From Thalia democratica (taxonomy: Eukaryota): a DNA stretch of 64,000 nucleotides. The position numbers are program-made. Position 1 is the stretch's first letter. Each line of letters opens with the position of its first letter. Shown in pieces: positions 36,001 through 45,000 of this stretch. The stretch spans positions 56,916,001-56,980,000 of the forward strand of contig OZ241832.1 of NCBI GenBank assembly GCA_965202585.1, given 5' to 3'.

Positions 36001-39000
36001 ATAATATTATAATAGTTAAATTTCAGCAAGTCGACTTATTTTTAATATCATTCTAACACGAGTTTATTTATTATCGATTTGTTTTTTTCTTAAATTTAAC
36101 ACAGAATTTTTGAGAGATTTTTTGCTCGATAAAAAAATGTATAGAGGTTGGTAATTTAGTTGCATATATTTCTAGCATTAACAAAAGTATTTTAAAGAGT
36201 TTCACAAAACCGATATATTTTGCTGATTTAGCTTTCAATAAATAAACTTACAGATAGTAGTTGCTAATATTAATTTGTGAAAAAGTGTTTGAAGAATTTA
36301 TGCCAAAAGTAATTAACGAAACGTACGTAATGCAACAAAAAACACGTAAGTTATTGATTGAGTTTTTATTTACTGTTTATTTTACTAAAAGTTTATTTAA
36401 GTTTTAATTCTTAAATTTAGTTTTATAAAGACCTTATCATAGTGTTATACCTTATTTTTTTAGTTTTTACCAGACGTTGAAAAATTATTAGCTGTATTGA
36501 TAGGGCTAATTGTCAAATCTTTTACTTTGTATTTTACTTGTATTTTATTTTACTAAAAATTTATTTAAGTATAACTTTTTTGATGTTCTTAAGTGAATTT
36601 AATATATTTTTTTATTATGTTTTGACTTTTTACAATACAATAAAAATTTAATATACTGTTTTAATAGATTTTGTTCTGAACTTTATCTTGAAAACCTTTA
36701 GCAGTATATTCATTTAATTATTATTTTTTTTGATTATTTTTACTTTTTTAAATTTTTATCATTTTTCCAGAAAAAGATCAGACGCCGAAAGACTGCGACC
36801 AGCTGATCACTGTGAGCATCAAGGAGAGCAAGAAGCGCAAGAAGCGCAAGATGAATAAAATATGCTCCTACTGCTTCAAGAAGAAGAGGACGCTGATCGT
36901 CTTCATCGTAATATTCCTCATCGTCGCGCTGGCGTGCACCTTTGTTTTGCTGAAAAATCGAGGTGAGTTTCGTTGAGGTTACGAGAAGCAGTTGAAACAA
37001 TTTTTACCTATAAATATTTAAAAATAACATTTCTGTTTGTGACTTTTATTGAGTTTTGTAGTTAAATTGGAATTTAAAATGTTATATCCCTATCAATATT
37101 TAAACAAAACAATTCTTTTTTTAAAATAACTTTGTTTTACAAAAATTCAAACAGTTTTTAAGAAATTCGAAAAATACTAACACCAAAAGCACCAAACAAG
37201 TTTATTCTATAAAGTTTAACTGTTTTTACAGGTTTGTTCTACAATAACACATCTAAAACTGACGACGAGTTGGTTTCCACCAAAAATCTTGCAGTCCCGA
37301 AAAACAGCTGCAGCCTCACAATCAGCAGCAAGTCGAAAGAGTTCCAAGTGAAGAAAATAATCTTGAACAAGAAAACTTTTGATGATTTCTTTCAAACCGA
37401 TAAAGAAAAGTTCAACGGAGAAAAATGGATTTCTCTGAAGAACATCGTCAATTCTGGTGAAAATAATAATGTAGAATTGAAAATGTTATACAAAAAAGAT
37501 TATGTCACAAGTAACAATCACGTAACAAAAAACCCTGATAATGACGTCACAAATGACGATGACGTCACAGTAGTGTTCCACGAGTCGTGCAACCGGCTTC
37601 TACCGATCCTCGGCTACTTCAGCCGAAACACTACGACAAGTGATCACGTGGACTTGCTCAAGCGTGACAAGTGCGATTTCGAGCACGTCGATTCGAGGGT
37701 CAACTGCAACTGGCGGGAAATAGTTCCAAACGGGGAACTCCCCTCAGTTGATCACGAGAAGAGGCGGGAAAGTTCAAAGAAAGTCCCTGTAAACTGCGCC
37801 GCTTTCCAAGGCGTGCAGGAAAAGGAGAACGTTCAGAACCAGTTCTTTGCCAAAGTGGTCGGCGACCCTGACAGCGGGGAGAAGTTCACCACCGCCTACA
37901 TGACGTCACCGACCTTTGACGTCACGGAACTGGATCACGTGACTTTCTCGATGCACTCGGCGATCCACTGCGACGGGTCGAGCTTGAGAGGTTACGTCAT
38001 ACCGGCCAGCAATGACGTGTTGGAGGAGGTGGAAAGTGCGGAGAGTTTTTTCGAGGTCGACCACGCCGTGTTCGGGTGGAAGATGGAGAAGTTCAATTTC
38101 GACGTTTCCACCCTCGCCGGTGAATACAGGGTCGGTTTGCTGCGTGTTTTGTAAAGTGTTTGAGTAAAAATGTTGAAGTTTTTGAAGCGCTTGCTACTTT
38201 TATTTTTTGCTTTAAAAACTTTTTATGATAGTAGTACTTACAAACACTAAATACTTCTGTTATTTGATTTTTGAATATTTTATTGACATATTGTTTTTAA
38301 ATATGTTATTGACAATGTTTAAACGGGCGTATAGTATACTTACAAACACTTAATATTCCATTGCATAATTTATTTAAAATGTCATTTAGTAGCTTCGAAA
38401 TTTAGCAAAACTAGTTTTTTTAAAACTGACAAATGAAGTTTTCAAAAAAGAGCATTGCGTAAAAGTTCAATCAACGAAATCGGCGAAAGTCTGCAGAACA
38501 AGTCCGGACTTTCGTTTGCCGTGAGACAAGCTCAAATTTAACAAAAAGGTTGATAATGCCAATTCGATCAGATGTCTTGCCTAGTGGACAATGTTTGAAA
38601 CGTTGCACGGCAAAGACAATGCTGACGTCACTAATCATTGCCAGCAAATGGTTGCTTCATGTGAAAGCATCATAATCCGTTTGTAGATTGACGACTACAA
38701 GTTTTTTGGTTGTGACTGACTGATGAGTCCTAATAAGGACAAAACCGGTCTCAGTCTACCGAAACTTGTGGTCTGATGATCGAATTGGCATGATCAATCC
38801 TTTTGCGTTAAAGTTATAAAGCGATTACAAATATTTATTTATTATAAAAAATATTACGACAACAGTTTAAAAGTTTAATTTTTTTTTTCTAATTTACTAT
38901 GTTTTAAGAGTTTTTCAATATAAAATAAGCTATAGTGTTGGAAAAATACAATAATAATTGTCAAACCATGTACAAGCTACTGTTTCGGACCACTATATAT

Positions 39001-42000: not shown

Positions 42001-45000
42001 GTATATTTTTAAAACAATTTCTGTCTTTAGTAGGTTTTTATTCATTATTTATAAAGGTATTTTACTCACTAGTCTTTTAAAGATTGCCTTATTACAAAAT
42101 GTTAACCAATTTTTAAAGAAAAATAATATTTTTCAGATTTCGTCGAAGTAAAATGAAAAGGTTAAACATCAATGTGGAAAGAAAATGCCAGTTGAATAAT
42201 CGTGCTTTTAACTGATTTTGCTAGTTTAAGCTTAAAAATTACTAATTTATGAAGTTTTAAGTTTGAAAATTAGTGTTTCAAATGGTTGTATTTACAGATT
42301 GAGTAACTTTAAGCTTTGTTTAATGTGATTTGTTTATTCCTAATAAACTTAAAAATTGCGAAAAACGATATAAGTACCATTTTGGTTAAAAATATTGTCT
42401 GTAAACGTTATGAAAAGTTTAATTGACTTTTAATAAAAGTTTATTTAAAGAATTTAAAGTTCTAAACTTTAGTATTTTTCTTTTAATTTTCAAAAGGTTT
42501 GCTGTCTTATTTTTAATTTTTGTTTACTGAGTTCTACTTGTTTAGTTTTAATTTTTTGTATTAACCATTTTCGTGGTTTAGCTAAAAAATAAGTTTACGA
42601 GTTGAAACTTAACTTTTTCTAAGAAATATTTAAAGTTTTTCAATTATACTGACAAACATTATTTTATTTTACCTCTGTAGCGCTATTGTATTTTTTTGCC
42701 TTTTCACGTTTTAGTAATTTATATGCAAATCAGCATAAACACTGTGTAAAAAATAAAAACAAAATACTAGTGTGTTATGAAAGTGCATTTAAACGGTTGT
42801 AAACTAATAATGTTTTTGTTAGATTGGCTTTAAAAAATTTTAATAAAATATATTACATTTTCTAAAATTTTATATAACAGATTTAAGTTTTTAATTTTAA
42901 AAACTTATGTAATCATGTATTTGTTAACGCTAAACATTATTATGGACTGTGTAAATATTGTATACTTTTATAAATAATAAGTGTTGACTATTGCTGATTT
43001 TACAGATTTTAATCACAAGTTAAGCATTTCGAACTTTTATTTATTTTAGAATAAACTGCAGACAAACTTTCGAGCTTTGTGAATTTTAGAATAGAAATTG
43101 GTATAGAACAAGAAAAGAAAAATAAACAAATCTTGTTTTACCCTATAGTATAAGTACTGATGATTTAAACTGTTATTAAAACAGTTTAATTCTGTTTGTG
43201 ACAAAAAAGTCTTTTAAATATCAAGTTTTTAACTTTTTTATAGCTACAAAAATTTTAAATACTTAGTTGCTTAATGATTTGCGTTTCTTTGTTTTACCTG
43301 TTATATTAAAAACTAGTTTGAATTTTTTAAAACAGTAAAAAGCAACTTATAACTTATTTTAAACCCTACAAATTATGATTATTTACGAGTTTTGTTTTAT
43401 ATATTTTTTGTAACAGGTTTCATTTAAAAAAAGGTATGACACAAGAAGCGTTTTCATTAATTTGTAAAAGGAAACATTATTTTAGCCTTAAAGGAAATAA
43501 AAATTTTCGCGTACCTTACGCATGTGCGTACTTATTATAGAAAACATTTAAAAATAATAAATTAATGTGTGTTAAAAATTTAGTGCGTACCTTATGCGGT
43601 TACATACTTCTTAATGTGCGTACCTTATCAATGTACATACTTTGTTAATAGCACAAATTTAAAATTATGGTTTAGTTTAGACTAGATTGCAGCCCGAATC
43701 AAATGAACATGATTTTAATTTCAGTTCGATGTTGGTGCAACATCATCCTAGCTGATTATCACATATCTAACTAAATTTATTTTTGTTTGTAAAAAATAAA
43801 TTACATAAATGTACTTATAGATCTAACAATTGGTTTATGTGAACTCAAGTGTTTTTCGTTTACCAAATTTTAAAAATACAAAAACAAAAGATAATATTTA
43901 TAATAGGCCAAGCCACTACTTCTATAAATTTACTAAATATAAATTATATAAATACACTTATAAATCAAACAATTGGATTATATGTGTTCAAGTTTTAACT
44001 TTTATTTTTGTTTATTAAATCTTAAATACAAAAACTATCCGAAATAATTATAAATGCCAAGCCACTACTTCTTTAGTTAACAAAATATAAATCAAACAAC
44101 TGGTTTATGTGTGTTAAAGTTTTTATGTATATAAACATTTTTTCTTTACAAAATCTTAAATACAAATCTATCCATAGCCTTTTAGTAAGCTGAGCCACTA
44201 CTTCTATTAGTTTACAAAATATAAATTACATAAATGTACTTATAAATCAAAAAATTAGTTTATTTGTATTGGAGTCGTTTTTTTTATTTTTTTGTTTATA
44301 AAATTTATGACAAATACTCTCCATAATATACTACTCAATAATATTTATTTAAGGACTAGACACTATTTTATTTTCCATTCAATTGCAGCAACTTAATTGC
44401 AGCAACATCTAAATACTACCTATAATTTTAATGACATAAAATCAAGTTAAGGGTAGATTTATGCAACTCTATCCATAAAATAGTGCCCATAAATTAGTAC
44501 CCATAAAAAGTCGTACCGGTTTACTTCTACCTTTTGAGACGGACTTTTTGTTTTATTTATATGGTTTATAAGTTTTGAAAACAATAAAAACTGTTATCTA
44601 AATGTAAAATACAAGGAAAAAATGCTGTCTAAAAATACGAAAAAAAGCTTAATTATCAAAAATGTTGTTAACAAATTATTGATACAGCATAGTTTATCAT
44701 AATTACAAAATTAGAAATGTTTATTGATGTCGAATTAAAATTATACATGAATAGTATAGAACAGTTTTTGTGCATTTACCTCTTAAACATTTGAGATTTA
44801 AAATTTCACTGTTTATACCTTTGTCCTCACGACAAATTTATTTCGATTTACAGCCACTACTGCAGTTTAAATTTATATTTGAACTAACAACAACCTTATT
44901 CAAATTTAATTTTTCATCATTTTTAAAGTTTTTAGTTCGCTCATTCTTAGGAGGGTCTACATTCGTGTCCTTAAGTTGGTCTTTGCATGCTATATGTAAG

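What the first reader, a model, noticed from the sequence alone, without database searches (positions are those of the whole stretch)
36300..42156. Unannotated-looking architecture: protease-less type II membrane protein made of MAM-like repeats
The ORF track shows only fragments, but eight exons splice in frame into 568 aa. The protein has a short basic cytoplasmic tail (KKRKKRK, CxxC-like CSYC), one TM helix without a signal peptide, a truncated MAM-like segment, one clear MAM domain, and a second divergent MAM-like domain ending at the C-terminus. MAM domains are established adhesion/dimerisation modules, usually in type I or GPI proteins (meprins, RPTP-mu/kappa, neuropilin, zonadhesin, MDGA). 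The well-known type II example, enteropeptidase, carries a serine protease, which is absent here. A duplicated, diversifying MAM-only type II receptor family could act in recognition, such as gamete, allorecognition or immune roles (inference).
Basis: partly seen in the sequence, partly recalled or inferred. Interest (0 to 1): 0.65.

Follow-up and report, generated by a model that had tools for sequence, protein, structure and literature searches.

The report
Type II protein with MAM-like domain
An unannotated gene, present in three copies here, encodes a single-pass membrane protein whose outer part probably holds a very divergent MAM-type adhesion fold; this looks like a lineage-specific surface protein, not a new kind of system.

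Summary
The gene model holds. Eight GT-AG exons (36300-42156, + strand) sum to 1707 nt, which is 568 codons plus a stop. All splice sites, the frame and the stop recur in an inverted paralogue (53038-48109). The last two exons recur in a third copy that runs off the window. Exons are 93-100% identical between copies A and B, introns 72-86%, and summed dN/dS is 0.28, so the genes are under constraint.

One strongly hydrophobic 21-residue segment follows a polybasic flank, which fits N-in (type II) topology. No protease exon lies downstream.

The MAM reading is only partly supported. Pfam gave no MAM hit in 22 exon-level scans. Three PDB profile searches and hhalign repeat tests were also negative. 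AlphaFold models were poor (pLDDT 40 and 54), and MAM-containing structures ranked high in Foldseek without significance. A language-model search put the main ectodomain block among MAM clusters (25 of 30 hits; best 0.94). The "truncated" and "second" MAM-like segments stay unproven, and diversifying selection is not shown.

Relatives are few: 8 unnamed ORF fragments among billions of proteins, and no spliced or annotated form. The organism was not identified; I do not take the contig for human.

The parts
36300..36345 (+). Copy A exon 1: ATG plus 15 codons and 1 base (MPKVINETYVMQQKT), donor GTAAGT
   Evidence: It is 46 of 46 bases identical in copy B, while the flanks differ. No transcript evidence.
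36771..36962 (+). Copy A exon 2: cytoplasmic tail, polybasic KKRKKRK (36830-36850), CSYC, and the hydrophobic signal anchor
   Evidence: dS 0.27 and dN 0.013 against copy B.
36890..36952 (+). Predicted transmembrane helix TLIVFIVIFLIVALACTFVLL (21 residues)
   Evidence: The Kyte-Doolittle 19-residue mean is 3.36. The net charge of the 15 residues before it is +7.
37232..37671 (+). Exon 3, first 146 codons: membrane-proximal segment with 2 invariant Cys.
   Evidence: hhalign against domain 1 gave probability 0.3%. AlphaFold pLDDT is below 35.
37672..38130 (+). Exon 3, codons 147-299: main part of MAM-like domain 1, from CDFE..NCNW to GEYR
   Evidence: ESM feature search: 25 of 30 hits are MAM clusters, best 0.94. 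Four Cys are invariant in 9 of 9 sequences. The last ~80 residues have pLDDT 62-86. No Pfam hit.
39168..39291 (+). Exon 4: by eye the last strands of domain 1 (VFLKASV .. GPTINIDEIVIDGGLKC), with 3 Cys and 1 NxT
   Evidence: dS 0.17, dN 0.021. No Pfam hit on its own.
39665..39745 (+). Exon 5 (26 full codons)
   Evidence: Splice sites are kept in B. dS 0.55, dN 0.033. No Pfam family.
40606..40718 (+). Exon 6 (37 full codons, 2 Cys)
   Evidence: Copy B has an in-frame 3-nt deletion. No Pfam family.
41114..41345 (+). Exon 7 (77 full codons): C-terminal beta-rich block of the putative second domain, ending ..IVFVGC
   Evidence: Copies B and C each differ from A at 1 of 77 residues. There is one distant database relative, P0009. 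The feature search was inconclusive.
42137..42156 (+). Exon 8: last 6 codons (the first completes a split codon) plus TGA
   Evidence: The acceptor and the stop position are kept in copies A, B and C.
48109..53038 (-). Copy B: complete inverted paralogue, with all eight exons open
62723..63753 (-). Copy C: exons 7 and 8 of a third copy. Its upstream exons lie beyond the window end.

Best explanation
This is a real, constrained, lineage-restricted gene present in at least three copies in a local cluster. It most likely encodes a single-pass type II (N-in, C-out) membrane glycoprotein of 568 residues.

Inferred layout:
- A cytoplasmic tail of about 55 residues, with a polybasic run and two juxtamembrane cysteines.
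- A 21-residue signal anchor.
- An ectodomain of about 490 residues with 12 cysteines.

The ectodomain has a membrane-proximal segment of about 145 residues, then a beta-sandwich that is most likely a highly divergent MAM-type jelly roll (exon 3 second half plus exon 4), then a C-terminal beta-rich block (exons 5-8) of unproven kinship. It has no catalytic domain.

Inferred mechanism: the anchor inserts co-translationally, and the disulfide-bonded, glycosylated ectodomain is displayed on the cell surface, where it acts as a binding or adhesion module, as MAM domains do in other receptors.

Shown here: the gene structure, the constraint, the duplication, the hydrophobic anchor and the lack of a protease exon. 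Inferred: the topology, glycosylation, the MAM fold and any binding role.
For: Gene model: 1707 nt in frame, GT-AG at 7 of 7 introns, all kept in copy B.

Constraint: summed over exons Sd = 42 and Nd = 47, giving dS 0.131, dN 0.036 and a ratio of 0.28. Intron divergence is 0.21.

Topology: one segment has a KD19 mean of 3.36 and all other exons are at most 0.90. Net charge is +7 in the 15 residues before it.

Extracellular character: all 6 Cys of exon 3 are invariant in 9 of 9 family sequences. There are 12 Cys in exons 3-7, and NxS/T sequons in E3 (3), E4, E6 and E7.

MAM-like fold:
- ESM Atlas features for exon-3 residues 140-299: 25 of 30 hits are PF00629 clusters, the best at 0.94 with 179 of 256 shared features. 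The tool's own guide value for same-family hits is 170 or more, though this was not measured for parts of proteins.
- Foldseek on two weak models puts meprin, the neuropilin-1 MAM domain, enteropeptidase and LAST-MAM among the top hits. Examples: 5l73_A prob 0.80, rmsd 3.2 over 75 columns; 8h3u_A prob 0.60, rmsd 3.2 over 78 columns.
- By eye, the block starts C-D-F-E..N-C-N-W and ends in exon 4 with ..INIDEIVI..C, the order of landmarks I recall for MAM domains (recalled, not tested).

No protease: the 26 ORFs of 40 aa or more between the stops of A and B have GC 0.15-0.31 and no protease family. There is no GC-rich island between 41.4 and 48.8 kb. The stop is kept in 3 of 3 copies.
Against: No profile method sees MAM.
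- Pfam gave 0 MAM hits in 6, 11 and 5 scans. This includes seven divergent relatives and a 157-aa piece that should hold most of the domain.
- PDB profile searches returned 1, 4 and 3 matches at E up to 10. None was a MAM protein; the best E-values were 0.67, 0.3 and 0.37.

The structure evidence is weak. AlphaFold models have mean pLDDT 40.3 and 54.1, and only 50 of 162 residues reach 70 in the better one. Foldseek found 0 matches at E of 0.001 or better in both searches. Carbohydrate-binding modules and ephrin-receptor ligand-binding domains ranked alongside MAM, so only a generic jelly roll is indicated.

The feature search carries no E-value and was not calibrated for parts of proteins.

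Exon 7 alone gave mostly unnamed bacterial clusters. MAM came at rank 7 (0.89), and the recognition value of 2276 is below the tool's 2300 mark.

There is no internal repeat signal.

There are no transcript, expression or organism data. Exon 1 and the start codon are inferred from paralogue conservation only.
Confidence: 0.55

Rival explanations
1. The same gene and topology, but the ectodomain is a lineage-specific beta-rich family with no common ancestry with MAM. The CDFE..C.W start and the C-terminal landmarks are coincidence or convergence within generic jelly-roll folds.
For: 0 MAM hits in 22 Pfam scans and in three PDB profile searches. Foldseek E-values are all 0.27 or worse, with CBM4, pectate-lyase CBM and Eph domains ranking beside MAM. 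Only 4 representative clusters exist among 1.84 billion.
Against: 25 of 30 nearest ESM clusters carry PF00629, and the best shares 179 features. MAM-containing chains hold rank 1 or 2 in both Foldseek lists although the models are poor. All tests ran on a domain cut by the exon 3/4 boundary, which lowers their power.
Confidence: 0.28
2. The protein is secreted. Translation starts at the internal ATG at 36851 (MNKICSYC..), and the hydrophobic stretch acts as a cleaved signal peptide, so the product is a soluble MAM-like protein.
For: An in-frame ATG lies 13 codons before the hydrophobic stretch. Exon 1 has no transcript support.
Against: The hydrophobic run is 21 residues, which from general knowledge is long for a signal-peptide core. 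It is flanked by KKKR and KNR. The upstream in-frame coding sequence (exon 1 and the first 26 codons of exon 2) is kept in copy B with 1 replacement (I count it from the exon-2 translations) and a kept splice pair.
Confidence: 0.1
3. The copies are decaying duplicates or an incomplete model: pseudogenes, or genes with further exons such as a protease outside the model.
For: No annotated or spliced relative exists in the protein sets. There are no expression data. Copy A carries a ~0.9-kb insertion in intron 3.
Against: All eight exons are open in A and B, with dN/dS 0.28. The stop is kept in 3 of 3 copies. Nothing coding-like lies downstream before the convergent copy B. No GC-rich island lies in the 16 kb upstream.
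Confidence: 0.07

Closest known systems
MAM-domain cell-surface proteins (meprin alpha/beta, RPTP mu, neuropilin-1/2, MDGA); Pfam PF00629
   Same: An extracellular, cysteine-bearing beta-sandwich of about 190 residues. The nearest language-model clusters are MAM. Meprin, neuropilin-1 MAM and LAST-MAM are among the top Foldseek hits. The solved NRP1 MAM domain is a jelly roll with four cysteines in intramolecular disulfides, and MAM domains are widely implicated in oligomerisation (PMC5104691, passages read).
   Different: No Pfam or PDB profile match. An extra ~35-residue variable insert lies after the C.W motif, with indels among the relatives. There are seven Cys in the block instead of four or five. 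The membrane orientation is type II, whereas, as I recall, those proteins are type I or GPI-anchored. No Ig, FN3, CUB or catalytic partner domains were detected.
Enteropeptidase (TMPRSS15) and other type II transmembrane serine proteases
   Same: An N-terminal signal anchor with the MAM-like module outside the cell. Enteropeptidase chains (8h3u_A, 8zi4_A) appear in the Foldseek lists. The papers on it were seen only as search listings (PMC9663175, PMC13012022).
   Different: No trypsin-like domain, and no SEA, LDLa, CUB or SRCR modules in any exon or downstream. The conserved stop comes six codons after the last beta-rich exon.
Bacterial 'cleaved adhesin' / choice-of-anchor J and carbohydrate-binding jelly rolls (CBM4 and similar)
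   Same: They appear among the feature-search and Foldseek neighbours: rank 29; 1gui_A and 8wc1.
   Different: These are prokaryotic secreted proteins. There is no sequence match, and the scores are at noise level. They indicate a generic jelly-roll shape, not kinship.

Membership tests
MAM domain (Pfam PF00629) | Match to the family profile at or above the curated cut-off | tested here: not met
   0 MAM matches at E up to 1 or 10 in 6, 11 and 5 exon-level scans. Caveat: the domain is split by the exon 3/4 boundary, and the joined sequence was not searched.
MAM domain (Pfam PF00629) | Sequence-profile similarity to MAM domains of solved structures (meprin, RPTP mu, NRP1, enteropeptidase) | tested here: not met
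   Profiles A1, A2 and A3 against PDB sequences found no MAM protein at E up to 10.
MAM domain (Pfam PF00629) | Jelly-roll beta-sandwich fold superposable on solved MAM domains (PMC5104691) | tested here: inconclusive
   The models have pLDDT 40.3 and 54.1. Foldseek gave 0 hits at E of 0.001 or better. MAM chains rank 1-8 with prob up to 0.82 and rmsd 3.2-4.5 over 66-78 columns, beside CBMs and Eph domains.
MAM domain (Pfam PF00629) | Four conserved cysteines forming two intramolecular disulfides (PMC5104691) | tested here: inconclusive
   Cys 147, 158, 188 and 246 of exon 3 are invariant in 9 of 9 sequences, and exon 4 adds three more. Equivalence to the MAM cysteines could not be established without an alignment to true MAM domains.
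MAM domain (Pfam PF00629) | Language-model feature neighbourhood of MAM clusters | tested here: met
   25 of 30 hits are PF00629 clusters, with the best score 0.94 and 179 of 256 shared features. This is a lead by the tool's own wording, with no E-value.
   hhalign probabilities are 0.34%, 0.15% and 0.61%. For exon 7 alone, MAM appears only at rank 7 with score 0.89. The exon-7 profile was shallow (4 sequences).
Type II single-pass membrane protein | No cleavable N-terminal signal, one internal hydrophobic anchor, and positive charge on the N-terminal side | tested here: met
   KD19 mean of 3.36 in exon 2 only. Net charge is +7 before the anchor. Exon 1 is hydrophilic. This is a hydropathy and charge rule only; no dedicated predictor or experiment was used.
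Type II transmembrane serine proteases (enteropeptidase type) | C-terminal trypsin-like catalytic domain | tested here: not met
   No protease family in any exon or in the 26 downstream ORFs. The stop is conserved in 3 of 3 copies.

The most novel reading that the evidence does not exclude
This is a previously undescribed family of type II, MAM-only surface receptors, arranged in a locally duplicating and inverting cluster. The copies would homogenise some exons by gene conversion while the membrane-proximal segment drifts. The family would serve cell-cell or self/non-self recognition (gamete, allorecognition or immune) in an under-sampled eukaryotic lineage.
Probability: 0.1. Interest if true: 0.6.

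Novelty: new variant of a known kind. Interest (0 to 1): 0.3.

Why it matters
If the MAM reading holds, the MAM fold is used here in a bare type II format, with no protease and no Ig/FN3 scaffold. It would also sit in a family too divergent for current profiles, which makes it a useful seed for widening the Pfam model and for annotating an under-sampled genome. A three-copy inverted and tandem cluster with uneven synonymous divergence is also a small natural case for studying gene conversion among surface-protein paralogues. Beyond that it is an ordinary lineage-specific membrane glycoprotein. Nothing here opens a long-standing question.

Tried and rejected
- Pfam on every exon-level piece and on the relatives gave only sub-threshold noise such as SPECT1, OST_P2, CbiG linker and pAdhesive_11.
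- PDB profile searches gave only chance matches: UGPase, SmyD1 and a sterol-carrier-like protein.
- AlphaFold on the whole of exon 3 and on the domain-1 part with 9 sequences produced models too weak for a firm fold call.
- hhalign for internal repeats found nothing.
- A search for longer (spliced or fused) relatives found none among 7276 candidates. The representative search, which has no length limit, found only 4 clusters of 273-384 aa.
- An exact look-up of the two neighbouring ORFs, meant to name the organism, found 0 of 4 sequences in the collection. The organism stays unknown.
- Rfam on the window gave 0 matches.
- The AATAAA scan gave 488 matches in this AT-rich DNA and is uninformative for a poly(A) site.
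- Literature searches: 'MAM domain' plus 'type II transmembrane' gave 13 papers; of the 10 listed, the titles that fit are the enteropeptidase papers. 'MAM domain-containing' with 'gene family expansion' and 'invertebrate' listed nothing relevant. These two searches are my only basis for saying I found no printed description of a MAM-only type II family.
- Not done: genome contigs, which holds bacteria and archaea only.
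Full report
Setting. The window is very AT-rich: 18-26% GC over most 2-kb bins, rising to 28-41% only where coding sequence lies. It has no N and no Rfam match. I do not take it for human. Exact look-ups of the neighbouring ORFs found 0 of 4 sequences in the collection, so I could not name the organism.

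Gene model. The six-frame ORF list shows only pieces. Reading the DNA and checking by script gives eight exons on the + strand:
- E1 36300-36345
- E2 36771-36962
- E3 37232-38130
- E4 39168-39291
- E5 39665-39745
- E6 40606-40718
- E7 41114-41345
- E8 42137-42156

All seven introns are GT..AG and the phases match.

Paralogues as an independent check. A second copy lies inverted at 53038-48109, and the last two exons of a third lie at 63753-62723, running off the window. Between A and B the exon-rich 100-nt bins are 0.89-1.00 identical, and the intron bins are mostly 0.72-0.86. Every splice site is kept, and the only exon indel is an in-frame 3-nt deletion in E6 of B. The acceptor of E8 and the stop position are the same in 3 of 3 copies. 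Summed over exons, the synonymous and non-synonymous differences are 42 and 47, giving dS 0.131, dN 0.036 and a ratio of 0.28. Aligned intron columns differ by d = 0.21.

Topology. E2 encodes a tail with KKRKKRK and CSYC, followed by TLIVFIVIFLIVALACTFVLL. Its 19-residue Kyte-Doolittle mean is 3.36, and no other exon exceeds 0.90. The 15 residues before it carry net +7, and E1 is hydrophilic. By the positive-inside rule (general knowledge) this is an N-in signal anchor, which means a type II protein with about 55 cytosolic and about 490 external residues. The external exons hold 12 cysteines and NxS/T sequons: three in E3 and one each in E4, E6 and E7. All six cysteines of E3 are invariant in 9 of 9 family sequences. 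A start at the internal ATG (36851) with a cleaved signal is a minor rival.

No protease. There are 26 ORFs of 40 aa or more between the stop of A and the stop of the convergent copy B. They have background GC (0.15-0.31) and no protease family; the one sub-threshold hit is DUF7786, at 17.6 bits against a cut-off of 27. No GC-rich island lies between 41.4 and 48.8 kb, or in the 16 kb upstream of E2.

Searches were made exon by exon. This costs power, because the putative first domain is split between E3 and E4, and the second among E5-E8.

Relatives. E3 (299 aa, P0001) scored against 1.84 billion representatives found 4 proteins at E of 0.001 or better. All are 273-384 aa and 36-75% identical. 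The word-indexed search found 5 among 522 candidates in the near-length class and none among 7276 longer candidates. E7 found 1 relative. All eight carry the source label 'ena', with no name and no Pfam domain, and sit on short contigs. They read through the same exon ends..YR|V and ..GC|G, so they are ORF-level fragments of the same kind of split gene. No spliced or annotated form exists in these sets.

Is it MAM? Evidence against:
- Pfam gave no MAM match in 6 pieces at E up to 1, in 11 sequences at E up to 10 or in 5 more.
- Profiles of E3 (6 and 9 sequences) and E7 (4 sequences) searched against PDB sequences gave only chance matches, with best E-values of 0.67, 0.37 and 0.3.
- AlphaFold gave mean pLDDT 40.3 for the whole of E3 and 54.1 with pTM 0.51 for residues 138-299. 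Only the last ~80 residues reach 62-86.
- Foldseek against the PDB gave 0 matches at E of 0.001 or better for either model.

Evidence for:
- In both Foldseek lists, MAM-containing chains are at or near the top: promeprin beta at rank 1 or 2; the neuropilin-1 MAM domain with prob 0.80 and rmsd 3.2 over 75 columns; enteropeptidase with prob 0.60 and rmsd 3.2 over 78 columns; and LAST-MAM. Carbohydrate-binding modules and Eph ligand-binding domains rank beside them.
- The ESM Atlas feature search with E3 residues 140-299 returned PF00629 clusters for 25 of 30 hits. The best scored 0.94 with 179 of 256 shared features, above the tool's guide value of 170, although that value was not measured for parts of proteins.
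- By eye the block begins CDFE..NCNW and, in E4, ends ..GPTINIDEIVIDGGLKC. This order of landmarks fits what I recall of MAM domains (recalled).
- The solved NRP1 MAM domain is a jelly roll with four cysteines in intramolecular disulfides (PMC5104691, passages read). Our block has four invariant cysteines in E3 and three in E4, but I could not map them onto MAM.

I put the MAM-like reading of this block at about 0.6. It is not a 'clear' MAM domain.

The other two segments. hhalign finds no kinship between the N-terminal segment and domain 1 (probability 0.34%), between E7 and domain 1 (0.15%) or between E7 and the N-terminal segment (0.61%). E7 in the feature search gave 23 of 30 unnamed clusters, with MAM only at rank 7 (0.89) and a recognition value of 2276, below the tool's 2300 mark. 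'Made of MAM-like repeats' is therefore unproven. By eye the C-terminal block does follow a MAM-like order of landmarks, but that is all.

Diversification. dN/dS between A and B is 0.55 for E3 residues 1-146 and 0.51 for residues 147-299. No 50-codon bin with measurable dS exceeds 0.68; the two bins with no synonymous change have undefined ratios. Across nine family sequences, mean pairwise identity is 0.51 in the N-terminal segment and 0.55 in domain 1. Nothing here indicates positive selection. The power is low, because only two full copies have DNA.

Verdict. The most likely reading is a lineage-restricted type II surface glycoprotein with one highly divergent MAM-like jelly roll and no enzyme domain, acting as a binding or adhesion module. 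A role in recognition is inference only. I rate it a new variant of a known kind and of modest interest.

What stayed unchecked:
- the joined protein, by any method;
- transcripts and expression;
- the organism;
- the closed contig collections;
- the rest of the cluster beyond the window.

Noticed in passing
window 28799-43230 (+) and 61955-47028 (-); also 47446-49394 and 62100-64000: The gene sits in a ~14.4-kb inverted segmental duplication (80-89% identical), with the arms tail to tail around ~45 kb. The 3' part of copy B is repeated directly at the right end of the window, which is copy C. The cluster is therefore part inverted and part tandem, and it continues beyond the window.
   Followed up: partly
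window 38194-39112 (intron 3 of copy A); related 12785-13022: A ~0.9-kb insertion is absent from copy B. It contains a 29-nt inverted repeat (38542-38570 / 38777-38805, 90% complementary). Part of it (38644-38815) recurs at 12785-13022 in both orientations. It is probably a MITE-like mobile element.
   Followed up: partly
window 56171-56451 and 57719-57917: Two arrays of a 41-nt GC-rich tandem repeat (8 copies in register) flank a ~1.7-kb stretch of the copy-B arm that has no counterpart in the copy-A arm. This may be an inserted element with terminal repeat arrays.
   Followed up: partly
window 37534-38130 and 41114-41345 compared with the introns: Synonymous divergence between copies A and B is very uneven. 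dS is 0-0.10 in the second half of E3 and 0.038 in E7, but 0.27 in E2, 0.55 in E5 and 0.26 in E6, against 0.21 in introns. E7 is the GC-richest exon at 0.55. This may be exon-limited gene conversion; I did not test it.
   Followed up: no
window 16625-17977 (+): An intronless 450-codon open frame has THUMP (E 2.1e-07) and RMKL-like methyltransferase (E 1.2e-33) domains, so it is a THUMP-domain RNA methyltransferase-like gene. No exact copy is in the protein collection.
   Followed up: partly
window 18920-19990 (+): A 356-codon GC-rich (0.53) open frame has no Pfam family. It is rich in D, F, P and R and of unknown function.
   Followed up: no
window 1-1663 and 6664-8360; 1816-2314 and 5343-5830: Further direct repeats of 90-92% identity lie near the left end of the window. 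They are probably dispersed repeats or another local duplication.
   Followed up: no
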